Virus record (IMG/VR): IMGVR_UViG_3300045988_177924
Source of the DNA: a virus
DNA length: 64,000 nt
Strand: one strand, 5' to 3'
Positions within the stretch are counted from its first letter, which is position 1; every line of letters starts with the position of its first letter. Position numbers and translations under genes: made by a program. Shown here one piece after another: positions 5,907 to 53,105 of the stretch. The notes beneath the pieces were generated by a model. It was not told the origin of the DNA, did no database searches, and saw only the letters and a program-made list of their open reading frames with translations.

Positions 5907-7541
5907 GTGCCTAATTTACAAAACCTATATCAAGTTTTTAAACTTAAATCTAGTTTTATTGTAGAGAACAACTTAAATATAGTTAATTATTCAAAATCTA
6001 AGGCAGCTCGCGATGGAGCGCTGGTATCAATTGGTGATAATCTGGTTTTTCAACAAATCAGAAAATATTATAATGATACCAGAAGTCATCGAGAGATTTT
6101 TAACGATGTCCAACAATTTCGTCGCGCTATAAGAGCCGCGAAGAGAGAGGGACGAACTAAGGAAGCTGGTATTCTTAATCGGTTTTTGACAGATGCGTTG
6201 TTTGTTAAAGATATTATTAACGTTGAAGTCGTGACCAAGAAAGAATATAAAGAATTGGCCAAGAATGGTTTTGACGTTAACGGTATTCATTATGTGAGAT
6301 TTTGTTGTGGTTCGGGACAAATGAGGCGCAACACTATTACCTTTATTAACGAAGCTCTTTATGACACCTTGTACAAAAACCTGATGTGCGGGTTGGACAC
6401 CAAGATTTCAGAAATGAATTTGGCGAAATATCATGCGTATTTTGCGTTGGCGTTTTCAAGTGTTATGTGGGTGCGAACTCCGAGGGTATGCGTAGTTAAG
6501 GATTTCTTTAATGTGGTGAAGGATCAATCGGTTGATTGGATTTGCCCCAATCCCGAGACTGGGAAAAAACAGATTAAAGAAAGAATAATGGATATCGAGT
6601 TAAACTGCGCTGATGGACAGGGGTTGATAGATCCTAAGTTTGCGGCGCTGTGGGCAGAAGATATGAATTTATCATATACGCCGTCGTCGTTCGTTGTCCG
6701 TAGCGTTTTTGTGAAGGGGTGCTTGGTTCCATTTGATTTTCGAGAATTTGGAGCTGTACACGGTATTGACTCAATTCGTGACCGGTGGGGAATCTCGCAT
6801 AGGTTAGAGGATATTGATGTTATATTGAGTGAATCTCAATTCAAGATGTATAAATATTATGTATCTTGGTATGAATATCAAAAGTATGTAGATGCGGCTG
6901 GTATTCAGTGGGGAGTTGCGAGATATAATAAAAAGTACGATGACGAATATGTGCTGGCTAATTATCAATATCTGCAAGTGTTGGATATCAATAAGGATGA
7001 TATTCTGGAATTGATTCAACCGACGATTGATTGGATTAAAAAGATTTGTTCAGGTGACCAATTGTATACAATGCTGTATATGTTGGGTTGCAAGGGCGAA
7101 CAGGTCAGTTTTAAAGAGCTGTACAATGGAGCGCAAAGCACGGCGTTGAGGGCTATTATTAAAAACCCGATAATGTTGGAAGACGCTCATGTACAGAAGA
7201 AAATATATCGCAATATTGCTGAGACGATAAACAAGGCGAAGATTGGTAAGATATGGGTGAGAGGAAATTATAGTTTTATGATTTCCGATCCCGTGGCACA
7301 GTGCCAATCGGCGCTTGGGTTGGAACCGGTGGGGTTAATTGGGCCTGACCAAGTGTATTCAAATTTCTGGAGGCAGCGAAGTGTGGGTTGTGTTGACCTG
7401 TGCCGCAGCCCGATGATTGACTCGCACGAACACAACCCTTGTAAAGTAGTATCGTCCGAAGATATGGATTATTGGTATCAATATATTAAGAGTGGAATCA
7501 TTTATAGTATATATGATACTTCAACATTACGACACTCCGAT
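5907..7541 (+). CDS. YonO / RdRP-family single-subunit two-barrel RNA polymerase, exon 1
   Basis: Family-type motifs CADGQGLID, VVRSVFVKGCLV (R..KG) and CRSPMIDSH. The ORF runs into an in-frame stop 4 codons after the proposed 5' splice site. Exon 1 ends ...RHSD with a U at 7541. Confidence 0.7.
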
Positions 7542-8587
7542 AGTGACTTAACATAATGGGTCCGTCGGATGGTAACATTCGATTGCTACTCAGTGAACCT
7601 GGCAATCCAGGGTGTGGGATAAAATCCTGCTAACAGTAAAAATCGTAAGTTTTGTTGGTCGGCCTGGAGAGAAATGCCGACAGAAGAAAAAGAATTCTAT
7701 GTCTATGAATGGATAAACAAAGACACGGGAGAGATTTTCTACGTAGGGAAAGGTAGTGGTTATCGTTGGAAACGTAAAACCGCCAGCTCTCGAAACAGAT
7801 ATTTCAATCGTTATGTCCAAAAATATCCAAATTGTGAACCTCGAAAAGTTTATGAAAATTTAACTGAAGAAGAGGCTTACAACAAAGAGCGAGAATTAAT
7901 AGCCGAATATAAAGCACAAGGCGTTCAGCTGGTTAACTTCGACGAAGGAGGACGACGAGGTGGACGCTCACCTGGAAAGCTAAATGGTATGTATGGGAAA
8001 ACACATACACCAGAAGCTCGAAAGAAAATAAGCGAAGCCAATTCCGATGGCCACAATGCGGGAATCAACAATACTCAATATGGAATTAGTCCAAGAGAGC
8101 GTATGAGTCCTGCGATATACGAGCAGTGGCGTACGGCACACAAGAAAGTAGTTGGTGCAGCAAATCCAAATTGCCATCATACAATTTTGTTTAATCTTGA
8201 ACATGAGATTGTGAAAGAGTTTGAATATACGATTGAATGTGCGCATTTTTTGGAAGAGCAAGAGCATTTAACTAATGGAATTGAGAATATTCGCTCGCAA
8301 ATCAAATATTACAGCAATACAGGACACGTTATGTTCAATAAGTATTATGTAAAAGTGATTCGGCCAACAAAACAAGACAATACTGTGCCAAGCCTCGTGA
8401 AAGAGGAAGGTTAAACGACTACCGAAAGCATATCAAGCGAGAAAAACGTTTGAAAAGAAGCAAGTAGGGTAGAGAACGGTGCAAATCCGGTTCTCGAAGT
8501 GCTGAGGGAACTATGAACGGTAAAAGAACATAGCTCTAAGAGATAGTCTACTCCCCTAATAAATATCGGGAAACCGAGGGTATAAAG
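7542..8587 (+). mobile_element. group I intron (1046 nt) carrying a GIY-YIG homing endonuclease ORF
   Basis: The 5' exon ends in U (7541) and the intron ends in G (8587). P1 pairs exon tccgaU (7536-7541) with the internal guide Gtcgga (7564-7569), with the U-G wobble at the splice site. Splicing restores one frame and creates the motif DVDGD. ORF-free structured arms lie at 7542-7673 and 8415-8587. Confidence 0.8.
7674..8414 (+). CDS. GIY-YIG homing endonuclease (I-TevI-like) with NUMOD3-type motif
   Basis: GIY-YIG region FYVYEW..GEIFYVGKGSGYRWKRK, the NUMOD3-like NGMYGKTHTPEARKKISEAN, and its own RBS GGAGAG. It lies wholly inside the intron. Confidence 0.85.
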   Translation: MPTEEKEFYVYEWINKDTGEIFYVGKGSGYRWKRKTASSRNRYFNRYVQKYPNCEPRKVYENLTEEEAYNKERELIAEYKAQGVQLVNFDEGGRRGGRSPGKLNGMYGKTHTPEARKKISEANSDGHNAGINNTQYGISPRERMSPAIYEQWRTAHKKVVGAANPNCHHTILFNLEHEIVKEFEYTIECAHFLEEQEHLTNGIENIRSQIKYYSNTGHVMFNKYYVKVIRPTKQDNTVPSLVKEEG

Positions 8588-9820
8588 GTTGACGGAGATG
8601 TAGTAATGTCCACGGATAATAAAATCTTTATCAAGGGTGCGCAAAAATGGCACAATGTCATCACATATGAGAAAGGTGCGGTGCCGGTTCAGAAGATTTG
8701 TTTAAAGAATTCAATCGCGACCGATATTCGCGGCTTGGGAACTGGGGTTGGAGGTTTTTCTAACTGCGCAACAATAATGCACGCAATGAAGGGAATTTTC
8801 CAAAAAGACACCCAAAAAGAACAAAGAGACGAACTCACTTTGCGTATTAAATTACTTCGAGAAATTGTTGGTCAAGAAATTGATAGAATTAAAGGAACAG
8901 CCGCGCCGGAGCTGCCAAAAGAGTGGAAAAAATTCATCCGAATTAATGATGATGACACTGATGCGGTTAAGGCTGATAAATATAAAAGAAATTCGATGGT
9001 TATTTCTAAAAAACCCTATTTCTTTAGATATTTATATCCAGAGCTAAACCAACAGTTCAAGCAATACGAAAACAGTTACAATATGGCGTCCAAAAACATG
9101 TTTGGTATTAAATTTAAAAAGCTTTTAACCAAACCTAATAAGTCAGAAGACGAGATGAATTTGGTACGCCGTTATCAAAAGTATTCGCCGCTAATCACCG
9201 CACCGTGCATAATGAATATATTGTGTAAGGAATTTGAAAATGTCGATTTTGATATTAATTTCAATAAAAACGCGGTAAGTATGTTGCCTACCTTTGAGGA
9301 TTGTTTTGAATTTGATCAAGAACGGTTTGCTATTGTTAAAGATTTGTATCGCAAATATACAGCGCGTAAACAAGTAAAAACCTTGGAGAGTATTGTTGAT
9401 AATATTGATTTACCGAATCGTGACGAATATGATGAGATTAGATTCGGGGCAATGACATTTATCAGAACGGAAATTCAAGAGGCGATTGAGTCTGCGTCGT
9501 TCAGTGGCAAAGAATTGCTTTACTACTGCCATTGTTTATCAAAAGAATACAAACAGTTTAATTGGGATTTTGCTTGGGACATTTTAGACGAAAGCGTGTT
9601 GGATTTAATCCCTCGTGGAATTGTTCAGATTCCCGTAAAAAATGAGACTGGATTTGAATACCTTGGTAATCGATACACTTTACAAGTAATTCACGAAGAT
9701 CGCGTCAGCGAGTTGTGTGATGATGACGATTGGAATCAAACGGCGTGGGAAGAAATTTTGGGGCAAGATTTAGATTTTGACTTCGATGCTGATAACTTAT
9801 TTGGAGGCGATGACGTATGA
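8588..9820 (+). CDS. YonO / RdRP-family RNA polymerase, exon 2
   Basis: The reading frame is open from 8540 and reads ...VDGDVVMSTDNK. Joined to exon 1 it gives HS-DVDGD-VV, the DxDGD metal-binding motif, 45 aa after the RSP motif. The spliced product is about 955 aa. Confidence 0.7.
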   Translation, partial: VDGDVVMSTDNKIFIKGAQKWHNVITYEKGAVPVQKICLKNSIATDIRGLGTGVGGFSNCATIMHAMKGIFQKDTQKEQRDELTLRIKLLREIVGQEIDRIKGTAAPELPKEWKKFIRINDDDTDAVKADKYKRNSMVISKKPYFFRYLYPELNQQFKQYENSYNMASKNMFGIKFKKLLTKPNKSEDEMNLVRRYQKYSPLITAPCIMNILCKEFENVDFDINFNKNAVSMLPTFEDCFEFDQERFAIVKDLYRKYTARKQVKTLESIVDNIDLPNRDEYDEIRFGAMTFIRTEIQEAIESASFSGKELLYYCHCLSKEYKQFNWDFAWDILDESVLDLIPRGIVQIPVKNETGFEYLGNRYTLQVIHEDRVSELCDDDDWNQTAWEEILGQDLDFDFDADNLFGGDDV

Positions 9821-33212: not shown

Positions 33213-33233
33213 TAATTTGGAGGAATAAAAACA

Positions 33234-39415: not shown

Positions 39416-40147
39416 ATGGAAGCAAAATTCCTCAAACGGTTAAGTGATTATAAGTACGCTCTCGTATGCGATTTGGCGCAATACGAGAGCGGCTTTGCTC
39501 TTTTAGATGTATCAACAAATGCCCTCATAGAGGTGCAACAGATATCCGTATCTCGAACGACAGATCAGCCTACCGGTGAAATGTATCAAATGTTCGACGA
39601 GATGGTCAATGACTTCTTGGATAGGTACAATCTTCAGGCAGAAGATTTAATTATTATTAAAGAACAACTGCCTATTAACTGCGGACCACACTCAACGGCT
39701 CAAACATTACAGGCCCTTGCGGCGGCACACGCAGTTTTCAATATCAACACTTATTTAAGAAAACTCTATACTTATTCCAACGGTATTCATTCGATTTCTG
39801 TGAAGACATATTTCAAGAAACTTCTAGGGATTGAGAAACCGCAAAAAGACGACATCCGTGCGGCGGTATGTAAATATTACGACATCGATCCCGAATCGAT
39901 TACGCGCGACGAATCAGACGCCATCGCACTTTGGTTCTGTCTTCGAGGTGCCAAATGGAATAAAGATATAGACGACCAAATTAAACTTGAAAAAAAACAT
40001 CGCAAAACTTTGACAGCAAATCATGCCATCAAAGATGTCGATAATGAAATAGAAAGATTGGAGGGACTCAAATGGGACGAACAACAGTTTACAACGCAAA
40101 TCTCACTCAAGCTTGGCCTTCAGTCAGTAAGCCAAACAGACAATTAG
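39416..40147 (+). CDS. RuvC-like Holliday junction resolvase
   Basis: RNase-H-like acidic pattern: ALVCDLAQYESG, IIIKEQLP, and a C-terminal DESDAIALW typical of RuvC-family resolvases. Confidence 0.55.
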   Translation: MEAKFLKRLSDYKYALVCDLAQYESGFALLDVSTNALIEVQQISVSRTTDQPTGEMYQMFDEMVNDFLDRYNLQAEDLIIIKEQLPINCGPHSTAQTLQALAAAHAVFNINTYLRKLYTYSNGIHSISVKTYFKKLLGIEKPQKDDIRAAVCKYYDIDPESITRDESDAIALWFCLRGAKWNKDIDDQIKLEKKHRKTLTANHAIKDVDNEIERLEGLKWDEQQFTTQISLKLGLQSVSQTDN

Positions 40148-41064
40148 TTAAAGAGTTTATAGATTATTGCAAAGCGAATGACCGCAGTGCGCAAACCATC
40201 AAGCAGTATGAGGCTCAGTTGAAGGTTTTCTTCTGTTGGAATTATACCGAGAATGAAGACAAGTTTTTCATCGATCTCAAAAAGCGAGATTTTGTGAGAT
40301 ACATTGGTTATTTGCGCGGGCTCGGTTTGAGTTCTAATAGGGTGGCTTCTTTAAAGTCCGCCATCAGCAGTCTGTCGAACTGTATTGAGGTTTTGGACGA
40401 AGATTTATATCCAAACTTTAGGAATTTAATCAAAAGCCTTGAACCGGTGCACAAAGAACCAGTACGCGAAAAAACGGTGTTGACCGACGAACAAGTCGAA
40501 GAGTGTTTAGACAAACTCTTGGCACAAGGTCAGTGTCAAATAGCCTGTGCACTCGCATTAAGTTTTGCGTCGGGAATGAGAAAGGCCGAATTGACCAGGA
40601 TGAAGGTTGAGTTTTTTGATGACGCACATTTAATTCTTAATGGTAAAATGTACAAAACGGGTGTCATTAAGACAAAAGGACGCGGCTCAAACGGAAAGCA
40701 GATTCCTAAATATGTATTAAAAAATAAATTTCAACCCTATTTTGATGCTTGGATGAAACAGCGCGAGGAGCGCGGAATAGAATCGCCATGGCTATTTGTG
40801 ACTACCAGTGATGGCAAATTTGTTCAAGCAACGGTGTCGCAAATGAATACGTACGCTGAGAAGATTGGTGCGTTGATGAATGTGCCTTTTTATTTCCACT
40901 GTATGAGACATTTGTGGACAACTAATATGCAAAAAGAAGGTATTTCGGATTCGGCTATTGCTGAAATCCAATCTTGGGATTCTCTTGAAATGGTCAAGAG
41001 ATATTCAGATATTCCGACAGAAGAGCGTTGGGCTCAATTTTTTGTTGGAGACGAAGAGGAGTGA
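40072..41064 (+). CDS. tyrosine site-specific recombinase (XerC/D / phage integrase family)
   Basis: SAM-like N-domain. Catalytic pattern ASGMRKAEL (R), HCMRHLW (HxxR..H/W) and LEMVKRY (Y). RBS GGAGGG. It overlaps the resolvase ORF by 76 nt. Confidence 0.8.
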   Translation: MGRTTVYNANLTQAWPSVSKPNRQLVKEFIDYCKANDRSAQTIKQYEAQLKVFFCWNYTENEDKFFIDLKKRDFVRYIGYLRGLGLSSNRVASLKSAISSLSNCIEVLDEDLYPNFRNLIKSLEPVHKEPVREKTVLTDEQVEECLDKLLAQGQCQIACALALSFASGMRKAELTRMKVEFFDDAHLILNGKMYKTGVIKTKGRGSNGKQIPKYVLKNKFQPYFDAWMKQREERGIESPWLFVTTSDGKFVQATVSQMNTYAEKIGALMNVPFYFHCMRHLWTTNMQKEGISDSAIAEIQSWDSLEMVKRYSDIPTEERWAQFFVGDEEE

Positions 41065-41777: not shown

Positions 41778-44700
41778 ATGGAAGGAATGGACTATACTCC
41801 CATTTTAACAAGCGTTGGTTCGGCTGATAGTGCAATTATTGCGATGCTCGAAGATTCGCAACTTACCGCAGAGAATTTAGGGACGACAGCCGCATATTTA
41901 ACAGACACTTTAAAAACAACAACTGATAAACAGTTAGAGGCTGCAGTTCAACAACAAAAAATCACACAAGCCCAACAAAAGGCGCTTGCTTGGATTCGAG
42001 ATAATTTTGAACAATTTCCTGGTGAAGTAAGGAAAACTCTTAAAGACACTTTTTCGAGTTTGTCAACACAGATGGCCAAATTGCCTCCCGCTGTAGTCCA
42101 CGAAGCTACTCGAACGTTAGTGTTGCCGTTGGTTGATAAAATTATCGGTAGCTTAAACGATGAGGAAATTGGCCGCTTGGCTATGGCGAAGATAAATCAG
42201 GGTTTAGGTGTGGACAACTTAAACAAGTACTCTGCTGGTTATAGAGCAATCTTTGAACAAATTAACAAAGAGTACAAATCGGTTTTAAAAGATTCTACTG
42301 ACCTTAGTGAACAATTTAAAAAAGCCAAGAAAGCACTTGCTAACACCACTTTAGCGGACTTTTCATCCACGAGTGGCTCGCCAGCGGTGAATAGAGAAAT
42401 TGCCACATTGCTAGATATGGCAAAAAAGGCCAAACAACAAAAAAATCCCGATTACAATCCAACGATAACCAACAAGGATGTTACTGGTAGTGCTCGTAGA
42501 GTAACAAAGGTCGCAGAAAAAATACAACAAAACGCTTTCTCGACGCAGAAAGAAGCGGAAAGTATTATTCTTCAATATTTTGATCCCAAAAAATTGACTC
42601 AAGAGGGGAAAAATCGTGCCAAGCAAGCCGCGGAATATGCTGCTAATATGCAAAAAGCGGGATATGGAGTAAGCTTCGCCCAAGATAACGGTTCTCAAGA
42701 GATTAAAGTTATTGTTTATGACAAAAATAGTGTCAATGCTTTCGATAGAAAGGGAAGGGTAAATCGTCAAAATGCCGCCATTGCTTCTTTTGCGGTTGGG
42801 GGCTTAGATAAGCGAAATGACGATTATGTAATTGATCAAGCCAAGAGAGTGAAAGTGTCGGATGCCGAGGCTCAAAAATTTGTTGAGATGTCTCAACATG
42901 CTCCCAAAACAATCGCAAGTGCGCGTAAACGTATTGGGGACATTAAAAACGAAACTGTTCACAAATCAACCTCAAAGTTTGATCGACAAGACAACCTGTA
43001 TGGTGTTGGCGCAGATAAGGCGTTAGTTGAAAGCAGAACTCGTTTTGAGAATGAGGCGAAACGTTTAGCAAAATTTGAGAAAGATCAAGGTTCTACCATG
43101 ACCGAATCGGAACTCGTTAAGTTGTTTTCTCAAATGTTTGTTAGCTTTGCTGGATTTGGGGAGCGGGATATTGGCGTACAAAAGAGTTTACGAGACCAAC
43201 AAATGAAAAACGGTCTCTCAGACGCAGTTATACGAGAATTTAATAAAAACTTTTCTTGGTTACCTTTGGTTGGCTCAATGGGTGAGGAAGATTCTGGCCA
43301 CTATCGACTGTGGGGCGCCAAAGAAATGAAGGACAAAATGGCCCTCGTAACTCGTAAAATACAAGGTCGTGATATCCAGCCTTACGCTAAACAAGGTAAA
43401 CCCGAACGTGTACAAAACATAGAAGTTGACGTCAACCGTTTGTTTGATCAAGTTGACGATTTGCTTAATAGCGCAGACGACAAAAAACGCGAGGCGGCGC
43501 AACTCCTTGATAAAAATCGTGACTTAATCGAGGGTTTGGTTGATGGTATGGCCCTGGTGTCGAAAGATCAAATTCAAAATTTGGACACAATTCGAGAGGG
43601 CGTATCGGTTAAGATTTCTAAAGCCGATTTGTTCAAATACGGGTTAAAAGGCAAGAAGAAGAAAAGTGCCGAAAACAGACGAAAAGCCTATCAAAAACTT
43701 TTGGCGGCCGAAGGCCGAGAGGCCACGGATGATAATGTTGATTTTTATATTGATCCTGAGACAGGAGATGTAACCTTAACCGGGAAAGAGGTGGTTAGGG
43801 CGCATACGGGTACAAAAGCCAATAGTGCCTACGGTAACTTACGTGTCGTTTATCGTGAAGTAGTTCCAGAAGTTATTAAGGCTATTTCCACAATAACAGG
43901 AGTTGAATTAATGCCCGAAAAAGACTCGCGCGCGACTGTGGTGTCAGCAAGAGAAGAAACCAGTTCAAGAAATATCGGACCGCTTGTAACTAGGGCTATA
44001 GACAACGCGATAAATGAACTAGATAAGAGTCAGATTGAAGCCAGTGTGAACAAACTTGGTACCACAAACCTGTCGACCAACATTGGACAAGCCTTAGTTG
44101 ACGTTTTGTTGAAAAAATTGAGCTTTAGCGATGCTTTGGACAAGTACGTGGGCTCAAACGTATCGGCTCGTACCAAATTTACGGGTGAAACCTTATATCT
44201 GTTAGATGAGTTGACGGGCGGAAAAAATGGATATGAAATTGTTGATGGGAAATTACAAACTAAGGCCCTTGCGTCTAGCTTTACTGATGTTGTTGGCGCA
44301 CGTTATGGTGAATATGAACCAAGAGGTGCGGCCAGCTTGCCAACAAACTGGGAAGTAGAAGATCTTGAACGTTCGGCTCGTGCAGCCGGTGTGGAAATAA
44401 CCCCCGAAAATAGTGATTTTTTACGCACTGTTCAACTTGTTGCTTTTGGAGCAACCGCAAACGATATCGAAGAAAAAAAGAAACTTATACGAGACTATAA
44501 TGAACATATTGAGCGTCAAGCTCAACTAATAGGTTCGCGAGCGGGGTTAAACCCTGATTATATCAATCGAAATGCGGGTGTTAACACAATCGTTGTTGGC
44601 TCAAAAGACATATATGGCAATCAAGCACACTTTATTGACATAAACGCACTTCGTCGCACTGAGAAATTAGACAACGGACAAAGTGATCCCGAACAAAGAG

Positions 44701-47700
44701 GTGAAACCATTTGGGGTAAACTTGATGAGCAGTTGCAATCTATAGACCAAACTCAAGCAAAAATTTTGGTTGATTTGGGCGCGGATATGGGAGAAGCGCG
44801 ATATTTCGATTTGGGCAAATACACTGATGAAATTGGAGATTATAACGAAAGTTTAGAAAGTTTACTTGACGCGGTTCGAACGGGGAAAACAGCGTCCGAA
44901 AAGAAAGACTTGCTAACCGCTGTCTTAAAGGCAGAGGCTTACAACTTTGAAAACACTGGCGGGGCTGTTAATGAACAATTCTTAGCAAAAATGGCTCGCC
45001 ACCAAGAAGAGGCAAGGAAAGCGGCTCAAGAGAGATATGATAAGAAATATAAGAAACGTTTAGCGTACTCTACGTTTTATGGCGAAAATACCAATATTGT
45101 AGCGACAGATACTACGAATGAAGTTGACGCCTTGCAAGAACGCATGAAGGATAGCGGTACTTATGTCGATAAAGAACATATTAGAGCAAGTGTCGCGCTT
45201 GGGTTGAATGCCTATAAGGGTGATGATAATGATGCTTTTGTAAAAAACTTAGCGCAATATTTGCAACTTTTTGCAGAACAGGGGCAAGACAAAGCTATCG
45301 AATCAGCTCTCGCCAATCAAAACTTTAAGAATTTTGCCGAAATGGTCGATTTTGCGACCAATATTTTTACCACGGGAACCTCAGAACATGAGAATTTTTA
45401 TGGCGGCACGAATCCTATTTTAAGTCGCGGTGTTGAAGCTGTATTGGGGAGGCAGCCTTATAGCCAAGCCATTAACTTACAATACGGAGGGTTGGTCTTT
45501 GGTAAAGAGGGCCTAGGAACAAACGTAATCGAAAGTAACCGTGGTCTCAACAAATTGATCATGGGGGATTTTGACGGTGATAAATTATACACCGCTTTAG
45601 TTCAACTTCGACAGGCTGCCCAGCTAATAGGCGCTACTTCCGAACAGTTTGGCTGGTTAGACGAAACCTTGGAAAGAGTCAAACGTTATAATGAATTTTT
45701 ATATAGAGTTATAGGAAAGAATATTCCGGCTATTACCTCATCCGACGCCGACTCATCGGTAATTCTTGATTTGGCGAAAAATCAAGTGTTAAACGATAAG
45801 CAAATGGCAATAGTGCGTTCCTATCAAAACCAGGCGAAAGACAAAACGGGTAACTGGTCCAACGTTGCAAAAGGTGCTCGAAATGTTTTAGAGTTACAAA
45901 AGTTGGGTACGGGTGCTGTTGTAGGCGGAGATTTGAATTCAACTATCGACTTTATTAAGGGGTCGTTTGTTTTTGAAGCACTAGAACAAGCTGAGCAAAA
46001 TGCGATTTCTTCTAAGAAACTTTGGGACGTTGCAATCCAAGATATGCAAACCACGCTTGGTTCCGATTTGGATAAAGTTGATGAACAAACGTTCGCTGAG
46101 CAACTTGACAAGTCTTTTAATATCGCGATTAACAAAGTTATTGATGAAGTTTACAAAAATAAAGCAAATGTGAACGATGTGATTCAAGCCGGTGCGGAAC
46201 AAGGAATCTATAAAGACAACAAATTAGAGGCCTGGCGTTCCCAACGAATATTGGGCACTTTGGCGATGAGCAAAAACGTTTCAGCGTACAAAGCTTTGGA
46301 AGAGTCTGGTATTTCCCCAGGTGACTTGGAAGCAATTGCTCAAATTGTTAAACCGGGCCGGAATTGGGAAAGTTTCAGAGGTCAACAAGGTGACTTTCAA
46401 AGTCAGTTACTGGACCAACTGAATCAAGGCGCTTTTAACCAATTTGGCTTTAGTGTAGACACATTAAAGGCATTTGGCGGCAATTTAGATGATGATTTTT
46501 TAGCGCAGGCTAAACAAGCACACGGGCGATTCCGTGAAGAAACAGGTCCTACAGGGCTTGGTACGGCAGCTGGAGAACTTATCAAAGCTATTAACAAATT
46601 AACGGTAGCAGAGACAAAAGTTGATAAGACAGGATTCGACCCTAAAATTGTTAGTATATTAGAAGAAATTCGAGACTTGCTTGCTAAACAAGGCCGAGGC
46701 GGTCTTAACGGACGTTATGGGCAGACCTATATGACACCAACGGGTATTGTCTCGAGTTTAAATCCTTCTTCGATCGATGAATCGGCTTGGGGTTATTTAC
46801 AGGGAAGAATGTTAGGGTTTAAGGGTTCAAATATCGATTGGACAAAACTAAATGTCAAAGAAAAGGCAAAACAGTTTGGCTACGCGGATATAGAACAATT
46901 TAAACAAGATAGAGAAGGTGTAGTTAGTACGTTTATAGGAACACTAGCTCACGCATTTTCTGAAGGTGAGATTAAACAGGATCCTGAAATTTTTAAACAA
47001 GCAACAAAGGATTTTACACAAGCTTTATCAATGCTGTTTGATAAAAAGGATGTCGACAAATATTTACTTGTTGCAAATGAATATGCACAAAGGGGTTATA
47101 ACGCATACGACCGATTAGCTGGACCAGACGCGTATCGTGCGGCGGAAGAACGGGTGCGATTAAATGAGAATTCTGATGTGGTAAAAGGTAAGACTGACGC
47201 CATTTACACAAGTAAGCGTATGGCTGAAAGTGGTCAAGAATATCAAGTGTTTAATGTTGTTGACTTTAAAAACAAGGCTAAAGTTGATGCTAATAGTATA
47301 GAACAGGTCTTGATTTATGTCGAGATGTACCGCCGTATTAAACAAGATTTGGATAAATTGGTGCGAGAAATTGGAGAAGACGCTGCTTTGGAAAAAATGA
47401 GCAAGCAGACACTCTTGTCGGCTGATACATTACGCCAATTACACGAATCGTTGGATGTTAGTGCTCAAATTGTCCAAAATTATCAAGGGAAAACCAAAGT
47501 GTATGATGTCGCAAATGTTCCCAGAGACATTGCGCAAGCTCTGGTGGAGGGGCGTTCTTTAACGGCAGAACAACAAAAGATTATAAATAATGCTGCCACA
47601 GCGTCGTCGCCACTGACACAAACCATGTCGCCTGATTTCCAAAAAAAATATTATAAGCTCACCGGTGAAATTTTTGGGGTAGATGGGTATAGTAAAAATA

Positions 47701-50700
47701 CGGTTGATTATGAGAAAAAAATAGCTGAACAAAAAGCTCTTGAGGAACAATTAAATAAAGTTCAAACAGAGCAAGGCGAAGAATCAACCGTGTTTAAGAA
47801 ACTCACACAATATTACAACAATCTTCTCGAAGAAATTAAGGCTCTGGAAGAAATTCGCAAACGACAGGTTCAAGAATTAAAACTTACCAAAGGTATGAAG
47901 GGGTCGGTGACACGCACGACTCGCAATCAAGTTCAACAACTTCTCGAAACGGGAGATTTACACTTTGGGTATGAAAAAATTCTAAAAGATGATGAGAAAC
48001 AGCGCTTACTTGCCCAAAAGCAACGAGAAGCCGTATTGAACCAGTACAAACGCTATAACGATCAGATTGCTAAGACGGAAAAGGACATGTTGGTTTTGGA
48101 CAAACAATCTAGAACCACACCGAGTAAACTCGAAAGAGGAATTCAAGCCGATAGAGGACAAATTGATATACTAAAGGCTGAACTCAAAGAGTTAGTTGAA
48201 AAACGTAATCTGCTTGTTGAAAACAATAAATTGACACAGGCAGAAACCGCCGAAGCCGATGCTCAACTTCAAACCAAGAGAGAATTAAACAGGCTTAAGG
48301 TTGCTGGAATGGCCAAGGGCGCCGGGAATTGGTTAGATGTTATTGGAAGTGGTGTTAAAAATACCATTACGAGAATGTTCGATTACAATGGTGTATATCG
48401 TATTCTGAATCGTATAACACAAGGTTTGCGTCAGCTTGTGCAACAGGTAAATGAGCTTGATGTTGCAATGTTCAACTTGCAAGTTGTTAGTGGTGACAGT
48501 CGTCAAGAAGTTTCAGCATTAATTAATGATTATGGCAAACTTGCTCAACAATTACACACTACTACAACTCAAATTGCTGCTTCGGCAAACGAGTGGCTTA
48601 GACAAGGTTATGAAGCAGGACAGGCTAACGAGCTGATCAAAGCTTCAACATATTTGAGCAAATTAGGCATGATTGAGGCTGGCCAAGCTACAACTTATTT
48701 GACGTCTATGATCAAGGGCTTCAAATTAGAGGCTGCCGACGCAGTTAATATTGTTGACAAGTTAACCGCTGTTGATATGGAAGCGGCTGTTAGCGCTGGT
48801 GGTATTGCTGCAGCAATGCAAAACGTTGCAACAACTGCTCAGTTAGCGGGGTTATCCATTGATAAAACAATTGGTTACTTGTCAACCATGATTGAAGTTA
48901 CCCAACGAGACCCTTCCTCTATGGGTATGGCTTTGCGCACGGTTTTAGCGCGTTATGGTAATGTTAAAGCAGGGACTTTCACAAATATGACGGGTATAGA
49001 AAGTTCCGATGCTGATTTAGAAAATGTTAACGATATTGAAAAAGTTTTAGGCAAAGTAGGAATACGCATTCGCGAAAATGCACAAGAGTTTAGAGATTTC
49101 GGAGACGTAATTGATGAACTGAGTGAAAAGTGGCAAAAATACGATTCTGTTACTAAAAACGCGATTGCTACTGCTATGGCTGGTGTTCGTCAACGTGAAT
49201 CTTTCTTGGTTTTAATGGAAAACAAAGATAGGGCTGACGAGTTGGAAGATGTGTCATCTTTATCAAAGGGCACCGCCGACACAAAATATGCTGCTTACCA
49301 ACAGACGTTAATGGCAGCAAAGGCCGATTTACAGACGTCACTACAAAGTTTGGCAAAATCAATACAAGACAGCGGATTACTTATTGCCTTTACCAAGTTG
49401 GCTAATATTTTGATTAAAACGGTTGTTCCTGGGTTTAACGCGCTTGCTTCTATGCTATGGGCGCGAAATTCGTTTAAACTAACAGAACAAATCAAATATA
49501 GTTTAAACCAACGTAAAACAACTTCCGCAGCCTCTCTCGGATTTTTTGCACAAAAAACACAACAAGAAGCATTAAGAAGACAAGAGTGGCAACAGGAGTT
49601 TTATAAAAAGAAAGAGGGCACTAATCAAACGTATGTTGACAGGTTATTGGGGAAAACATCACCCAAGACTGCGCTTTCGTCGTTTACTAATGTGTTGAAT
49701 GATGCGTCTACAGCAGTACGTGGTTTTACGGGTGCCATAAATGGCTCACCGGTTCAGTCCACAACCTCTTCTCAAGCACCATCGAAGACGCCTGTGGTAG
49801 ATCCAAGGCGTCTGGTGTATACCGAGGCCGGCGAGTGGCCTAGTGTAGATGAATACGCCAAAGGTTCTAGGTTTAGACGCCTTAATAGGGCAAAAATTCG
49901 TAAAGATTTACAAAGCGGTCGCATAACCACTGTTGACGCGAGCAATATTAAACAAAAATATAAACAAATAGCAAAAGAAGATCGACAACAAGCCAAAGCA
50001 CTTTTAGGCCAGCAAATTACAGGGAACGTAGCAGGTGCGGTTGGCGCCGGTGTCACCTCTGCATTAACCACGGGGTTTAACCAAGAGGGTTCCGCAGGGG
50101 CGAAGGCGACTGCTGGAGTTACAGCTGGTGCTTTGACAGGTGTTGGTGCATTATTTGGTCCAATGGGAGCGGTTATAGGTTCCACTTTGGGTTCAATATT
50201 GGGACCGGTTTTTGCTAAATTGGTTGACAAAGAAGAAAACGAACGTAAACAACGTGCAGAAGCAGCTCAGAAACAATTGGACGCTTTAAATTCATTAAAC
50301 AATACATTTGATGAAGTGCATGATTATACCGAGAAAGAGTATTTAACTTCAGAGGCCATTTTAGCTATTAAAGAGCGAGTTGACTCTATTGACGAGCAGA
50401 TGGCTACAAGTGGTTTAAGTTTCGACGATTATCTTAAACAAGCTGCTACCCAACTTGGATTGGGTGAGGATTTTCAAACTATAGAAGATATTCGTGAGCT
50501 ATTAACCGCTGCTGATGAGAAAACTCGTCAAAAGGCACAAGAGGTGTTTGACTTAGCCCAAAGTATGGCCAAAGTACAAACAACGCAAGAGTCCAAGGCA
50601 GTGTCGGATATGTCATATGATGAGAAGAGAGTTTATTGGCGGGCATTAGACAAAGAGTATATTAAACAAGCGTTTATTACATCTGGTCTGGAGCAAATGT

Positions 50701-53105
50701 CGCTTCGTCAGTTGTCTCAAACAAATCTTGATGACGCAATCAAACAAGTTGCCGCACAATTTGAAAAATTGGAACTTACGCCCAAGTCGTTTGCTCTTTA
50801 TGACTCGAAAGGAAATGTGACAGAAGAGGCTGCGAAGTATATTACCGATCAATTGCGTAAATCCGACAGGATGCAGGAGTTACTGCAAGGTTCTGTTTTG
50901 ACGCTTTCTGAGGCTTTACAGGATAAGGACAAAAACGCCAATGTGATAGAATCTTTTGCGTCGGCTTTGGGGGTTTCAACGACGCGTCTTGAAGAGATGT
51001 CGAAGCAACTGGGGGCGCTTAAATTATCTGATTTGGTTAAATCCTCTTCTCAGTTACGCGAAATGCTCAACGGGTTGTACAGCATTCTAGACAGTTATTA
51101 CGAAACGGGGTATTTGGACTTAGATGCTCAGGAAAAAATTATTTCTAATTATCCCGAATATGTTGATTTCATTTCAGATCCCAGCAAGATTGTTGACCAC
51201 ATCAACCAAATAACGGCGGGTGTGAAAGAGTTGCATATAAGAAACTCTTTAAACGATTGGGCAAAAAACGAAAAAAATGCCGAGATTTACGTACGTGATT
51301 TTCTCAAGAGTTACCAAAATGGTGATTACAAAGGCTTGTTTACGGACAAAAGGTATTTTGGCGAACTTAGTACTCCCGAACAAATGCTTCAGCGCATCGA
51401 GCTCCTGCTCAACGCCGATGACGAGAACGAGGCTGTTTTAAATGCCGTAAAAAACAATATTACACAAGGTATGAAGAACCATGAGGCTATAGCTACAGCT
51501 TTAGCCGAACAGCTAGATAATTCTAAGAAACTTGAAAGTGTCAATAAGTATTTGGATAAATCTTATGAAAAACAAATTAACGCACTAGAAGAACAAAAAT
51601 CTGCACTAGAGCAAATCAACAGTCAACGGGAATATGAAAATAAACTTATTGAGGCTAAAATTAAACTTGAGAACGCTCAAAACGAAAAGAAGAAAGTGTG
51701 GAGAGAAGGCGTTGGTTGGGTTTACGAAGCAGATACTGCCGCAATCGCAGATGCTCAAAAAGAGTTGGAAGATTTGGACAATGAGAAAAAAATTAACGAA
51801 TTACAAACTCAAATTGATGAACTGCAGGCACAGCGCGAATATCTTGGGGACATTGCCAGTACCCAAGAGCTTGAGGGATTAAAAAAGGTTTATGAAAGTT
51901 GGCAAAAAGAAATAGGTATTAGTAACACAGGACAGGCACAGGCATTACATTATTTTGCTGAGGCTTATACCAAAATTCAACGACTAAACCTTGATACAAC
52001 TCAAACAGGCTCCGACGGCAAGAAGACAGAGGATTATTTAAAAAATATCTCGGATAAACGCATTGAAGCCTTGGGTGCTGCCAAGGGAGCTTTTGAAGCA
52101 GGCATCACTGAAGCACCAGCATCGCGACAAGATTATACAGTAGCCGCTGTTGAGCAAGTTAACAAATACAATAGTAAACTATCAGATTTTAAAAAAAGTG
52201 CTGATAAGTATTTGGAAGCTGGCGGTTCAAAAGAAGAATTGGCAAAAGAACTGGGGCTTACAACGGATGATAAAGGGACTGCAGTAGACAAACTCGACGC
52301 AATGCTAAATCGTGAAGAAGTGAAATTGGCGCCTGTTCGAGGAGCATATTTTGACTGGGATGGGCGGAAAAATATTTATGCGACTTGGCAACCGAGTCAA
52401 ACCACCGATGCAGGGTGGAAAAAAGCCAAATCCAAAGACACGTACGTTTTACTAAACGGTGGAAAATGGGCTCGTGTAGATCAAGCGTTTGGCATTTCGG
52501 AAAACAAAGGGTTGGACGACCCTAAATATGCTGGGCTATTTTTTGTTGAACTTAAGGGCAAAGATCAACTTTTTTGGAATTCTGGGAATGGCATGTACAA
52601 AGCCTCTTTAAACGAAAAGGATTATGCGCAGACCCAAGGTGTTGATGATAGCGCGCCCGTTTCGTTCCCTACTCTAGAGGGCGGTTTTAACAAAGGTTAC
52701 GATCTCGATCGCACTAAAAAATGGTTAGCATTAGAAGGCTTTGGGGCACACGCCGATGGTACTCTATCTACCGCCGGTGGCCTCTCTCTCGTCAATGACG
52801 ATCCTCAATATGGTCTTGAAGGCATCATTACTCCTCAAGGTACTTTGACGGCTCTTCCGTCGAAGTCTGGAGTTGTTCCCGCCGACCTTACGCGCAACGT
52901 ATGGCAACTGGGCGAGGTTGCTCCTAACCTGATTAAACAACTTGTGGACATCAATGGCAAGTTCAGTCACACAACAGGGTTCGGAACCGACGAATCGTTT
53001 AATGTTGAACATCTGGATGTTCATATGGTTGCTCAACCTGGGTTTGATATGGATGACTTTGTGCGACAACTTCAAGCTGCACGTAATCTCACAAGACATT
53101 CTTAA
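41778..53105 (+). CDS. giant 3775-aa virion protein: N-terminal two-barrel RNAP-like region fused to a TP901-type tape measure domain
   Basis: Single uninterrupted ORF.
- Beta-like motif TGKEVVRAHTGTKANSAYG (around nt 43780-43830).
- Beta-prime-like motif LGRQPYSQAINLQYG...(39 aa)...IMGDFDGDKLY (RQP at nt 45450-45458, DFDGD at nt 45567-45581).
- TP901-family TMP core NELDVAMFNLQVVSGDS...TYLSKLGMIEAGQATTYLTSMIKGF...AAMQNVATTAQLAGLS (around nt 48440-49000).
- Gly/Ala-rich hydrophobic segment (around nt 50020-50220).
- Long coiled coils. Confidence 0.8.
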   Translation: MEGMDYTPILTSVGSADSAIIAMLEDSQLTAENLGTTAAYLTDTLKTTTDKQLEAAVQQQKITQAQQKALAWIRDNFEQFPGEVRKTLKDTFSSLSTQMAKLPPAVVHEATRTLVLPLVDKIIGSLNDEEIGRLAMAKINQGLGVDNLNKYSAGYRAIFEQINKEYKSVLKDSTDLSEQFKKAKKALANTTLADFSSTSGSPAVNREIATLLDMAKKAKQQKNPDYNPTITNKDVTGSARRVTKVAEKIQQNAFSTQKEAESIILQYFDPKKLTQEGKNRAKQAAEYAANMQKAGYGVSFAQDNGSQEIKVIVYDKNSVNAFDRKGRVNRQNAAIASFAVGGLDKRNDDYVIDQAKRVKVSDAEAQKFVEMSQHAPKTIASARKRIGDIKNETVHKSTSKFDRQDNLYGVGADKALVESRTRFENEAKRLAKFEKDQGSTMTESELVKLFSQMFVSFAGFGERDIGVQKSLRDQQMKNGLSDAVIREFNKNFSWLPLVGSMGEEDSGHYRLWGAKEMKDKMALVTRKIQGRDIQPYAKQGKPERVQNIEVDVNRLFDQVDDLLNSADDKKREAAQLLDKNRDLIEGLVDGMALVSKDQIQNLDTIREGVSVKISKADLFKYGLKGKKKKSAENRRKAYQKLLAAEGREATDDNVDFYIDPETGDVTLTGKEVVRAHTGTKANSAYGNLRVVYREVVPEVIKAISTITGVELMPEKDSRATVVSAREETSSRNIGPLVTRAIDNAINELDKSQIEASVNKLGTTNLSTNIGQALVDVLLKKLSFSDALDKYVGSNVSARTKFTGETLYLLDELTGGKNGYEIVDGKLQTKALASSFTDVVGARYGEYEPRGAASLPTNWEVEDLERSARAAGVEITPENSDFLRTVQLVAFGATANDIEEKKKLIRDYNEHIERQAQLIGSRAGLNPDYINRNAGVNTIVVGSKDIYGNQAHFIDINALRRTEKLDNGQSDPEQRGETIWGKLDEQLQSIDQTQAKILVDLGADMGEARYFDLGKYTDEIGDYNESLESLLDAVRTGKTASEKKDLLTAVLKAEAYNFENTGGAVNEQFLAKMARHQEEARKAAQERYDKKYKKRLAYSTFYGENTNIVATDTTNEVDALQERMKDSGTYVDKEHIRASVALGLNAYKGDDNDAFVKNLAQYLQLFAEQGQDKAIESALANQNFKNFAEMVDFATNIFTTGTSEHENFYGGTNPILSRGVEAVLGRQPYSQAINLQYGGLVFGKEGLGTNVIESNRGLNKLIMGDFDGDKLYTALVQLRQAAQLIGATSEQFGWLDETLERVKRYNEFLYRVIGKNIPAITSSDADSSVILDLAKNQVLNDKQMAIVRSYQNQAKDKTGNWSNVAKGARNVLELQKLGTGAVVGGDLNSTIDFIKGSFVFEALEQAEQNAISSKKLWDVAIQDMQTTLGSDLDKVDEQTFAEQLDKSFNIAINKVIDEVYKNKANVNDVIQAGAEQGIYKDNKLEAWRSQRILGTLAMSKNVSAYKALEESGISPGDLEAIAQIVKPGRNWESFRGQQGDFQSQLLDQLNQGAFNQFGFSVDTLKAFGGNLDDDFLAQAKQAHGRFREETGPTGLGTAAGELIKAINKLTVAETKVDKTGFDPKIVSILEEIRDLLAKQGRGGLNGRYGQTYMTPTGIVSSLNPSSIDESAWGYLQGRMLGFKGSNIDWTKLNVKEKAKQFGYADIEQFKQDREGVVSTFIGTLAHAFSEGEIKQDPEIFKQATKDFTQALSMLFDKKDVDKYLLVANEYAQRGYNAYDRLAGPDAYRAAEERVRLNENSDVVKGKTDAIYTSKRMAESGQEYQVFNVVDFKNKAKVDANSIEQVLIYVEMYRRIKQDLDKLVREIGEDAALEKMSKQTLLSADTLRQLHESLDVSAQIVQNYQGKTKVYDVANVPRDIAQALVEGRSLTAEQQKIINNAATASSPLTQTMSPDFQKKYYKLTGEIFGVDGYSKNTVDYEKKIAEQKALEEQLNKVQTEQGEESTVFKKLTQYYNNLLEEIKALEEIRKRQVQELKLTKGMKGSVTRTTRNQVQQLLETGDLHFGYEKILKDDEKQRLLAQKQREAVLNQYKRYNDQIAKTEKDMLVLDKQSRTTPSKLERGIQADRGQIDILKAELKELVEKRNLLVENNKLTQAETAEADAQLQTKRELNRLKVAGMAKGAGNWLDVIGSGVKNTITRMFDYNGVYRILNRITQGLRQLVQQVNELDVAMFNLQVVSGDSRQEVSALINDYGKLAQQLHTTTTQIAASANEWLRQGYEAGQANELIKASTYLSKLGMIEAGQATTYLTSMIKGFKLEAADAVNIVDKLTAVDMEAAVSAGGIAAAMQNVATTAQLAGLSIDKTIGYLSTMIEVTQRDPSSMGMALRTVLARYGNVKAGTFTNMTGIESSDADLENVNDIEKVLGKVGIRIRENAQEFRDFGDVIDELSEKWQKYDSVTKNAIATAMAGVRQRESFLVLMENKDRADELEDVSSLSKGTADTKYAAYQQTLMAAKADLQTSLQSLAKSIQDSGLLIAFTKLANILIKTVVPGFNALASMLWARNSFKLTEQIKYSLNQRKTTSAASLGFFAQKTQQEALRRQEWQQEFYKKKEGTNQTYVDRLLGKTSPKTALSSFTNVLNDASTAVRGFTGAINGSPVQSTTSSQAPSKTPVVDPRRLVYTEAGEWPSVDEYAKGSRFRRLNRAKIRKDLQSGRITTVDASNIKQKYKQIAKEDRQQAKALLGQQITGNVAGAVGAGVTSALTTGFNQEGSAGAKATAGVTAGALTGVGALFGPMGAVIGSTLGSILGPVFAKLVDKEENERKQRAEAAQKQLDALNSLNNTFDEVHDYTEKEYLTSEAILAIKERVDSIDEQMATSGLSFDDYLKQAATQLGLGEDFQTIEDIRELLTAADEKTRQKAQEVFDLAQSMAKVQTTQESKAVSDMSYDEKRVYWRALDKEYIKQAFITSGLEQMSLRQLSQTNLDDAIKQVAAQFEKLELTPKSFALYDSKGNVTEEAAKYITDQLRKSDRMQELLQGSVLTLSEALQDKDKNANVIESFASALGVSTTRLEEMSKQLGALKLSDLVKSSSQLREMLNGLYSILDSYYETGYLDLDAQEKIISNYPEYVDFISDPSKIVDHINQITAGVKELHIRNSLNDWAKNEKNAEIYVRDFLKSYQNGDYKGLFTDKRYFGELSTPEQMLQRIELLLNADDENEAVLNAVKNNITQGMKNHEAIATALAEQLDNSKKLESVNKYLDKSYEKQINALEEQKSALEQINSQREYENKLIEAKIKLENAQNEKKKVWREGVGWVYEADTAAIADAQKELEDLDNEKKINELQTQIDELQAQREYLGDIASTQELEGLKKVYESWQKEIGISNTGQAQALHYFAEAYTKIQRLNLDTTQTGSDGKKTEDYLKNISDKRIEALGAAKGAFEAGITEAPASRQDYTVAAVEQVNKYNSKLSDFKKSADKYLEAGGSKEELAKELGLTTDDKGTAVDKLDAMLNREEVKLAPVRGAYFDWDGRKNIYATWQPSQTTDAGWKKAKSKDTYVLLNGGKWARVDQAFGISENKGLDDPKYAGLFFVELKGKDQLFWNSGNGMYKASLNEKDYAQTQGVDDSAPVSFPTLEGGFNKGYDLDRTKKWLALEGFGAHADGTLSTAGGLSLVNDDPQYGLEGIITPQGTLTALPSKSGVVPADLTRNVWQLGEVAPNLIKQLVDINGKFSHTTGFGTDESFNVEHLDVHMVAQPGFDMDDFVRQLQAARNLTRHS

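What the first reader, a model, noticed from the sequence alone, without database searches (positions are those of the whole stretch)
41778..53105. 3775-aa single ORF fusing a beta/beta-prime-like RNA polymerase signature to a tape measure protein
The C-terminal ~1500 aa carry a textbook TP901-family tape-measure core, a Gly/Ala hydrophobic segment and coiled coils.

The preceding ~2200 aa are not typical TMP. They contain LGRQPYSQAINLQYG followed 39 aa later by IMGDFDGDKLY. This mirrors the beta-prime active-site barrel (NRAPTLHRLGIQAF, then NADFDGDQM with its first Asp 35 residues after the Arg).

About 570 aa upstream there is TGKEVVRAHTGTKA, which resembles the beta barrel GDK..RHG.KG.

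Virion-packaged, ejected RNAPs are known (N4 vRNAP; crAss-like gp66). I am not aware of one covalently joined to a tape measure, the protein that exits first through the tail channel.

Together with the intron-split YonO-type enzyme at 5907-9820, the phage would carry two distinct two-barrel RNAPs: an ejected early enzyme and a synthesised middle/late one.
Basis: partly seen in the sequence, partly recalled or inferred. Interest (0 to 1): 0.85.

Follow-up and report, generated by a model that had tools for sequence, protein, structure and literature searches.

The report
Tape measure protein carrying RNA polymerase module
A gut-phage tail "tape measure" protein of 3775 residues carries, ahead of its ordinary tail-length core, a conserved region with the catalytic signature of cellular RNA polymerases plus a DNA-cutting domain. 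This looks like a second, apparently independent case of the polymerase-on-a-tape-measure arrangement first shown in 2024 for a Thermus phage.

Summary
The ORF (41778-53105, 3775 aa) and all quoted motifs are real. The fusion is not an artefact. At least eight lineages, down to 15-20% identity, join the same N-terminal module to a TP901-type tape measure core. Where relatives look "split", the cause is a group I intron (or intron-sized insert) inside the core, or a scaffold gap.

A profile of the region around DFDGD has only R-x-P and D-x-D-G-D invariant. It hits PDB RNA polymerase largest subunits almost exclusively (59 of the top 60, best E 1.6e-5). The beta-prime-like catalytic barrel is therefore supported by sequence.

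The proposed beta-like motif at aa 668 and a bridge-helix candidate are conserved but match no polymerase. AlphaFold failed twice, so the second barrel is unproven.

Thermus phage P23-45 gp96 is a proven tape-measure-fused virion RNAP, paired with a second non-virion RNAP. This phage pairs its module with a YonO-type enzyme. The family shows no detectable kinship to gp96 beyond the motif, so I class it as a new variant of a known kind.

The parts
41778..53105 (+). Single 3775-aa gene: N-terminal polymerase-like module, then nuclease, coiled coil and TP901-type tape measure
   Evidence: Full-length relatives of 3766-3899 aa exist (L010-L012, L019, P0015).
41778..45344 (+). N-terminal ~1190 aa, conserved within the family, function not assigned. 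It would have to hold the second (beta-like) barrel if there is one.
   Evidence: No Pfam, PHROG, PDB or GenBank-phage hit. Homologous in L014, L022, L019 and the L007 upstream ORF.
43764..43844 (+). Conserved basic motif, aa 663-689 (G663, K680, R689).
   Evidence: G663 and R689 are invariant, and position 680 is K or R in 8 lineages. The region's profile finds no polymerase in the PDB.
45345..45602 (+). Beta-prime-type catalytic segment, aa ~1190-1275: R1225-Q-P ... D1264-F-D-G-D1268
   Evidence: These are the only invariant residues across at least 8 lineages. The profile hits RNAP beta'/Rpb1/Rpo1N/rpo147, best E 1.6e-5. Relatives give sub-threshold Pfam RNA_pol_Rpb1_2 and LEF-9 hits.
45837..46019 (+). 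Conserved segment, aa 1354-1414 (K..TG..SN..K..RN.L ... EQ.AISSKK). Bridge-helix candidate, unproven.
   Evidence: Present about 80 aa after DxDGD in all lineages (hmmsearch E 3e-9 to 2e-22; alignment). No PDB polymerase hit.
46860..47327 (+). RecB/AddB-type PD-(D/E)xK nuclease domain, aa ~1695-1850 (H1725, D1807, D1829-x-K1831, Q1843...Y1847)
   Evidence: Catalytic-type residues are invariant. Pfam PDDEXK_1 passes its threshold in relatives: P0016 scores 30 bits against 22, and the best E in A8 is 5e-11. The top PDB profile hits are AdnAB nuclease domains, E 0.014.
47655..48317 (+). Coiled-coil-like linker, aa ~1960-2180
   Evidence: Sequence composition. Covered by PHROG tape measure families.
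48414..49436 (+). TP901-type tape measure core, aa 2213-2553
   Evidence: TIGR01760 scores 102.5 bits. PF10145 E 3e-26. Relatives carry a group I intron or intron-sized inserts inside this core.
50022..50225 (+). Gly/Ala-rich hydrophobic segment, aa 2749-2816, the putative membrane-inserting part
50226..53105 (+). C-terminal tape measure part with coiled coils
   Evidence: PHROG tape measure families reach aa ~3511. Weak similarity to the tape measure proteins of SPbeta-type and Enterocloster phages.
5907..9820 (+). Second, YonO-type single-chain RNAP gene. It is interrupted inside its DSD|GD catalytic motif by a ~1 kb insert carrying a homing-endonuclease ORF (7674-8414).
   Evidence: There is no Rfam intron hit.

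Best explanation
The gene encodes a tail tape measure protein whose first ~1900 residues are cargo. The cargo is a module with the catalytic barrel of two-barrel RNA polymerases, followed by a RecB-type nuclease domain.

Proposed mechanism:
1. The protein is made late. Late genes are probably transcribed by the phage's YonO-type polymerase, as in SPbeta.
2. It is built into the tail tube, where the C-terminal ~1900 residues set tail length.
3. At infection it is expelled through the tail. The hydrophobic segment helps form the channel across the envelope.
4. The N-terminal module lies at the head-proximal end, next to the incoming DNA. It reaches the cytoplasm and transcribes the first genes to enter, independently of host RNA polymerase. 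This may also help pull the genome in.
5. The nuclease acts on host or incoming nucleic acid.

Shown here: the gene architecture, its conservation, the beta-prime-type catalytic signature and the nuclease signature.

Inferred by analogy with P23-45 gp96: presence in the virion, ejection, RNA synthesis and early-gene specificity.
For: - Architecture conserved in all lineages found. The RxP...DxDGD module and a TP901 tape measure core share one gene in the window, in P0013/P0016/P0017/P0018 and in L009-L025.
- The 95%-identical relative L001 is interrupted only by a group I intron: RF00028, 83 bits.
- In an 11-sequence alignment at 15-20% identity, the only invariant residues are R, P, D, D, G, D.
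- That profile against 177635 PDB sequences gives 59 RNAP largest subunits in the top 60. Phage AR9 beta' scores 1.6e-5, vaccinia rpo147 1.9e-5, mycobacterial beta' 1.2e-3 and Rpb1 1.4e-3.
- Relatives read almost canonically. P0018 has NRYPSISKHS...NGDYDGDTVNL and L019 has NADFDGDKL.
- Pfam LEF-9 (4e-5) and RNA_pol_Rpb1_2 (6.5e-4) match the same residues of P0018. RNA_pol_Rpb1_2 recurs in L020 and L022.
- Nuclease domain.
- Precedent: P23-45 gp96 has 779-DFDGD-783 in the N-terminal part of a 5002-aa tape measure, is active in vitro, is present in virions and is paired with the non-virion RNAP gp64 (PMC10770324).
- This phage likewise has a second RNAP of YonO type. YonO transcribes SPbeta late genes (PMC5467207).
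Against: - No structure. Two AlphaFold runs gave mean pLDDT 44 and 55, with the motif region below 50. Foldseek on the model gave nothing.
- The second barrel is not shown. The profile of aa 590-800 hits no polymerase.
- The bridge-helix candidate hits none either.
- hhalign to gp96 is not significant (probability 0.7%). The window sequence by itself gives no Pfam polymerase hit.
- Several distant relatives were found with a pattern that includes D[FY]DGD, so part of the motif's invariance comes from how they were selected.
- SPbeta itself manages without a virion polymerase.
- Activity, virion location and processing are untested.
Confidence: 0.55

Rival explanations
1. The module does contain a beta-prime-type metal-binding barrel, but it is not a DNA-dependent transcriptase. 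It could be another nucleotidyl transferase such as a primase, an RNA-dependent polymerase or a PolD-like DNA polymerase. It could also work with the adjacent nuclease on DNA ends, or act mainly as a DNA-translocation or anchoring device.
For: Only one barrel is supported by sequence. The beta-like and bridge-helix regions match no polymerase. A RecB-type nuclease is always attached, and it has no counterpart in what I read of the gp96 paper. Double-barrel folds also occur in the DNA polymerase PolD (PMC10770324).
Against: 59 of the top 60 profile hits are DNA-directed RNA polymerase catalytic subunits. The RxP...DxDGD spacing of 39 residues matches beta' (35) and gp96 (38). The only characterised tape-measure fusion of this kind is a transcriptase.
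Confidence: 0.25
2. The N-terminal module is an RNAP-like enzyme that is cleaved off during assembly. It would work in the producing cell, for instance in late transcription or tail assembly, and would not be ejected.
For: Many tape measure proteins are proteolytically processed (own knowledge). A folded ~200 kDa module is hard to fit in a tail tube. SPbeta-type phages do not need a virion RNAP.
Against: The fusion is kept in every lineage over deep divergence. That is hard to explain if the parts act separately. gp96 is detected in virions with antibodies to its N-terminal fragment.
Confidence: 0.12
3. DFDGD is a chance match in a long, ordinary tape measure protein, or the long ORF is an assembly or sequencing merge of two genes.
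For: D.DGD occurs in 8% of shuffles of a protein this long, and the loose published filter in 17%.
Against: RxP and DxDGD are the only invariant residues across lineages at 15-20% identity, and the profile hits RNAPs. Independent assemblies give the same architecture: Logan, ENA, IMG/VR and a GTDB MAG. The window ORF contains no ambiguous bases.
Confidence: 0.03

Closest known systems
Thermus phage P23-45 gp96, a tape-measure-fused virion RNA polymerase (Chaban et al. 2024, PMC10770324)
   Same: A giant tape measure protein whose N-terminal part carries R-x-P...DFDGD with the same spacing (38 vs 39 residues). The polymerase part sits at the N-terminus and the tape measure and membrane segment at the C-terminus. 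The phage also encodes a second, non-virion two-barrel RNAP.
   Different: No detectable sequence kinship beyond the motif: hhalign probability 0.7%, and the family's catalytic profile gives gp96 only 5.7-7.9 bits against 22-28 bits for canonical beta' types. The distance from the start to DFDGD is longer (1264 vs 779). A PD-(D/E)xK nuclease is added here, and the metallopeptidase domain annotated in gp96 gave no Pfam match here. The tape measure core is of TP901 type. The host is a gut Firmicute rather than Thermus. The partner RNAP is YonO-type rather than gp64-type.
Catalytic double-psi beta-barrel of multisubunit RNAP largest subunits (beta', Rpb1, Rpo1N, vaccinia rpo147, phage AR9 and phiKZ beta'-like subunits)
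   Same: NRxP...NADFDGD-type signature, detected by profile search at E 1.6e-5 to 1e-2. A proline 9 residues before the first Asp is present in L019 and L020, as in beta'.
   Different: Nothing else aligns. A beta partner is not detectable. It is a single chain inside a virion structural protein.
YonO of SPbeta, a single-chain two-barrel RNAP (PMC5467207)
   Same: Same phage neighbourhood: the window encodes a YonO homologue at the head of the structural operon.
   Different: The tape measure module is not a YonO paralogue by sequence. The catalytic profile does not hit the window's own spliced YonO.
Ejected virion RNAPs: N4 vRNAP and crAss-like gp66
   Same: Large virion proteins that deliver a polymerase into the cell (discussion of PMC10770324).
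   Different: Those come from podovirus-type virions and are not tape measures. N4 vRNAP is T7-like, not two-barrel (own knowledge).
RecB/AddB/AdnAB-type PD-(D/E)xK nuclease domains
   Same: Motifs G..D, D-x-K and Q...Y. Pfam PDDEXK_1 matches relatives, and AdnAB nuclease domains are the top PDB hits.
   Different: Embedded in a tape measure protein. I know of no report of such a domain in one.

Membership tests
Two-barrel (double-psi beta-barrel) RNA polymerase superfamily | Beta-prime-type barrel with R/K-x-P followed 20-100 residues later by the metal-binding DxDxD (DxDGD) loop | tested here: met
   R1225-x-P1227 and D1264-F-D-G-D1268. Invariant in 11 sequences. The profile hits RNAP largest subunits, best E 1.6e-5.
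Two-barrel (double-psi beta-barrel) RNA polymerase superfamily | Second, beta-type barrel carrying conserved basic residues that face the active site | tested here: inconclusive
   A conserved G663/K680/R689 motif exists, but its profile hits no polymerase. The AYNFENT resemblance to beta's GYNFEDS is not conserved in distant lineages. No structure was obtained.
Two-barrel (double-psi beta-barrel) RNA polymerase superfamily | Bridge helix and trigger loop after the catalytic barrel | tested here: inconclusive
   A strongly conserved segment lies at aa 1354-1414 in all lineages. It has no PDB polymerase hit.
Two-barrel (double-psi beta-barrel) RNA polymerase superfamily | Templated RNA synthesis | not testable with these tools
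   Needs a biochemical assay of the aa 1-1900 fragment.
Tape-measure-fused virion RNAP (P23-45 gp96 type) | Polymerase module and tape measure in one polypeptide, with the polymerase at the N-terminus | tested here: met
   True of all lineages.
Tape-measure-fused virion RNAP (P23-45 gp96 type) | Sequence homology to gp96 | tested here: not met
   hhalign probability 0.7%, and only the DFDGD stretch aligns. hmmsearch gives 5.7 and 7.9 bits.
Tape-measure-fused virion RNAP (P23-45 gp96 type) | Presence in virions and transcription of pre-early genes | not testable with these tools
   Needs virion proteomics and early-transcript mapping.
Tape-measure-fused virion RNAP (P23-45 gp96 type) | A second, non-virion two-barrel RNAP in the same genome | tested here: met
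   YonO-type gene at 5907-9820, with spliced DSDGD.
TP901-type tail tape measure protein | TIGR01760 / PF10145 core above threshold | tested here: met
   102.5 bits against a cut-off of 28.8. 93 bits against 33.2.
TP901-type tail tape measure protein | Position in the tail module between tail-tube/chaperone genes and distal tail/baseplate genes | tested here: met
   Terminase, portal, virion and tail proteins lie upstream, and tail proteins downstream. The two ORFs just upstream are atypical: one is integrase-like.
PD-(D/E)xK nuclease (RecB/AddB-like) | Motifs D, (D/E)-x-K and Q...Y in order; Pfam PDDEXK_1 | tested here: met
   D1807, D1829-x-K1831, Q1843 and Y1847 are invariant. PDDEXK_1 is above threshold in relatives. 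The window sequence itself falls below Pfam detection.

The most novel reading that the evidence does not exclude
A tape-measure-tethered, ejected enzyme combines an msRNAP-like polymerase with a RecB-type nuclease. It arose independently of the Thermus phage case and is the rule in a broad, previously unrecognised group of large gut siphophages of Clostridia, including TAG-recoded phages of 155-214 kb. Tethering a transcriptase to the DNA-entry channel would then be a recurrent solution for host-independent early transcription and genome pulling, here coupled to nucleic-acid cleavage.
Probability: 0.35. Interest if true: 0.75.

Novelty: new variant of a known kind. Interest (0 to 1): 0.6.

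Why it matters
Until now there was one known family of RNA polymerases joined to a tape measure protein, confined to Thermus phages. This finding adds a second family.

- It is unrelated in sequence to the first and sits in gut Firmicute phages that also carry a YonO-type polymerase.
- Its catalytic region looks closer to canonical cellular-type beta' than to gp96 or YonO. That would make the fusion convergent, which argues that tethering the first transcriptase to the DNA-entry channel has a real functional advantage.
- The attached RecB-type nuclease is a new passenger for a tape measure. It suggests that the ejected protein also cuts nucleic acid.
- The family gives a tractable route to test transcription-coupled genome entry in Gram-positive hosts.
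- It shows that very long tape measure genes are worth scanning for enzymatic cargo.

Tried and rejected
- **AlphaFold2, aa 600-1500** (7-row alignment): mean pLDDT 44. Unusable.
- **AlphaFold2, aa 1100-1480** (8 rows including P0016/17/18): mean pLDDT 54.8, motif region below 50. Unusable.
- **Foldseek** of the second model against the PDB: best E 0.98. Meaningless, as expected for a low-confidence model.
- **Direct searches with the N-terminal 1900 aa**: no phage match by megablast or tblastn. phmmer, and a 14-sequence profile of close relatives, found no polymerase in the PDB.
- **hhalign**, family against gp96 and against E. coli beta': only the DFDGD stretch aligns, and not significantly.
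- **Profiles of the beta-like region and the bridge-helix candidate** against the PDB: no polymerase.
- **'AYNFENT' (aa 1054-1060)** looked like beta's GYNFEDS. It is not conserved in distant lineages, so I rejected it as probably chance.
- **An apparent split form.** In L007 an 849-aa ORF precedes P0018, which I first took as a natural split. A run of ten N (a scaffold gap) lies between the two ORFs, so this is an assembly break and not evidence of separate subunits.
- **Short ORFs in L016-type loci.** These come from in-frame TAG codons, pointing to a recoded genetic code, not from truncation.
- **Third homologue search**, with the P0018 N-terminus: nothing returned.
- **Rfam on the insert in the YonO gene**: no intron model found.
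Full report
**1. The observation**

The ORF 41778-53105 (+) is real. It is 3775 aa, has no ambiguous bases and has a strong ribosome-binding site. The quoted motifs sit at aa 668, 1223 and 1261, with DFDGD at 1264-1268.

The tape measure part is firm:
- PF10145 at aa 2254-2469, E 3e-26.
- TIGR01760 tape_meas_TP901, 102.5 bits against a cut-off of 28.8, at aa 2213-2553.
- PHROG tape measure families over aa ~1855-3511.
- A Gly/Ala hydrophobic segment at aa 2749-2816.

The first ~1850 residues match nothing directly. Pfam, PHROGs, PDB sequences and GenBank phages all gave no hit.

**2. Genomic setting**

The window is the late/structural region of a large siphovirus distantly related to SPbeta-type and Enterocloster phages. 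In order it holds:
- a YonO-type RNAP gene (5907-9820);
- an exonuclease, terminase and portal;
- virion and tail proteins;
- an integrase-like ORF;
- the tape measure gene;
- distal tail genes.

The YonO gene is interrupted inside its catalytic motif. Joining the exons gives ...HSDSD|GDVVMS.... The ~1 kb insert carries a homing-endonuclease ORF, but Rfam recognises no intron in it. YonO of SPbeta transcribes the late operon (PMC5467207).

**3. The fusion is real and general**

Only a very small family exists. There were 14 close hits among 5.8 billion clusters. An exhaustive HMM search of 1.84 billion representatives found four clusters at 50% identity.

Many relatives looked truncated at ~2270 or ~2400 aa, ending abruptly inside the tape measure core. 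For the 95%-identical relative L001 the cause is established. A group I intron (RF00028, 83 bits) with a 538-aa ORF sits exactly there, and the rest of the tape measure follows.

Pattern scans of IMG/VR and GTDB genomes added 19 loci. An HMM of the tape measure core shows that every lineage has the module and the core in one gene:
- It is uninterrupted in L010-12, L014/15 and L019 (3899 aa).
- It is broken at three recurrent core positions, resuming downstream after 0.3-2 kb inserts, in L013, L022 and the L016 group. I read these as introns by analogy with L001. Only the L001 intron was confirmed with Rfam.

The L016 group uses TAG as a sense codon. The one apparent split of the N-terminal half, in L007, coincides with a run of N in the scaffold and is an assembly break.

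A Lachnospiraceae MAG carries a 37%-identical copy. This fits the Enterocloster/Clostridium affinities of the other genes.

**4. Is it a polymerase?**

*The catalytic barrel.* An alignment of the 170 residues around DFDGD was built from 11 sequences of at least 8 lineages, most only 15-20% identical to the window. Exactly six columns are invariant: R, P, D, D, G, D.

Some relatives read nearly canonically:
- P0018: NRYPSISKHS...NGDYDGDTVNL.
- L019: NADFDGDKL.
- P0017: NADYDGDRIAV.

A profile of this alignment was searched against all PDB sequences. It returned 121 hits at E ≤ 10. Of the top 60, 59 are RNA polymerase largest subunits:

| Hit | E-value |
|---|---|
| Phage AR9 beta' | 1.6e-5 |
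| Vaccinia rpo147 | 1.9e-5 |
| Mycobacterial beta' | 1.2e-3 |
| Rpb1 | 1.4e-3 |
| phiKZ gp55 | 5e-3 |

All align over RxP...DxDGD. Pfam LEF-9 and RNA_pol_Rpb1_2 give sub-threshold hits at the same residues in three lineages. I take the beta-prime-type catalytic barrel as supported by sequence.

*Cautions.* The bare motif is not rare in so long a protein. Some distant members were fished with a pattern that contains it.

*The rest of a two-barrel enzyme is not shown.*
Its profile finds no polymerase.
- A very well conserved segment about 80 residues after the Asp triad (K..TG..SN..K..RN.L ... EQDAISSKK) is a bridge-helix candidate. It also finds none.
- AlphaFold2 failed twice because the family is too shallow. 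Foldseek on the model was empty.

**5.

Residues ~1695-1850 carry the RecB/AddB-type PD-(D/E)xK signature: H1725, D1807, D1829-x-K1831 and Q1843...Y1847. These are invariant in the lineages that could be aligned.

Pfam PDDEXK_1 passes threshold in relatives. AdnAB nuclease domains head the PDB profile hits, though marginally, at E 0.014.

**6. Comparison with what is known**

The arrangement has a published precedent. P23-45 gp96 is a 5002-aa tape measure whose N-terminal ~1100 residues are a flat, clamp-less two-barrel RNAP with 779-DFDGD-783. It is present in virions and transcribes pre-early genes, including the gene for a second RNAP, gp64 (PMC10770324).

The logic here is parallel: polymerase at the N-terminus of the tape measure, and a second RNAP in the genome. 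But this is not the same family:
- hhalign to gp96 is not significant.
- The catalytic profile scores gp96 at 5.7-7.9 bits and finds no hit in the window's own YonO. It scores canonical beta' types at 15-28 bits.

This suggests an independent fusion, though the basis is a short region. I found no later paper describing such fusions outside Thermus phages.

**7. Likely mechanism** (inferred)

The protein is made late and threaded into the tail tube. On infection it is expelled, and the hydrophobic segment inserts in the membrane.

In studied siphophages the tape measure's C-terminus sits at the tail tip (own knowledge). The N-terminal module would therefore leave last, next to the leading DNA end. 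It would then transcribe the first genes as they enter, as Chaban et al. propose for gp96. The nuclease may attack host DNA or process nucleic acid at entry. Its role is open.

**8. Verdict**

- Novelty is reduced to a new variant of a known kind.
- It is still of real interest because of the apparent independent origin, the nuclease passenger and the breadth of the family in gut phages.

Noticed in passing
window 2574-4123 (-): A HEARO RNA (Rfam RF02033, 94.6 bits, 3910-4123) lies directly upstream of a 419-aa HNH-endonuclease ORF (2574-3836). This looks like an IscB/HEARO-type RNA-guided nuclease module carried by the phage.
   Followed up: partly
L016, L018, L021, L023, L024, L025 (IMG/VR contigs, 36 kb and 155-214 kb): The homologous gene has only TAG as in-frame 'stops' over more than 7 kb. 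Read with TAG as sense, it is a 2470-2486-aa protein with DFDGD at 1487. These relatives appear to be TAG-recoded phages.
   Followed up: partly
L001 10896-11180; L013, L022 and the L016 group; ends of P0001/P0006/P0013: The TP901-type tape measure core is interrupted at three recurrent positions (about window aa 2277, 2335 and 2400). One is a confirmed group I intron with a 538-aa DUF7487/Mom-like ORF. The window's copy has no insert.
   Followed up: partly
window 40072-41064 (+): A tyrosine-recombinase (integrase-like) ORF sits immediately upstream of the tape measure gene inside the tail module, where tail chaperones are expected. It is conserved in the relative L001.
   Followed up: no
window 7548-8593 (+): The insert in the YonO-type gene splits the DSD|GD catalytic motif and carries a homing-endonuclease ORF (7674-8414). 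Rfam finds no group I or II intron model there, even at E ≤ 1.
   Followed up: partly
L007 3359-3368: A run of ten N (a scaffold gap) separates the 849-aa ORF from P0018. The apparent two-gene form of the module in that contig is an assembly break.
   Followed up: yes
window 44937-44957 (aa 1054-1060): AYNFENT resembles the GYNFEDS metal-binding motif of the RNAP beta subunit.
   Followed up: partly
window 53273-58192 (+) and 31515-34925 (+): A 1639-aa ORF just after the tape measure gene shares a short PHROG 24103 segment with two tail-region ORFs (31515-33212, 33234-34925). This may be a repeated domain in several tail proteins. Function unknown.
   Followed up: no
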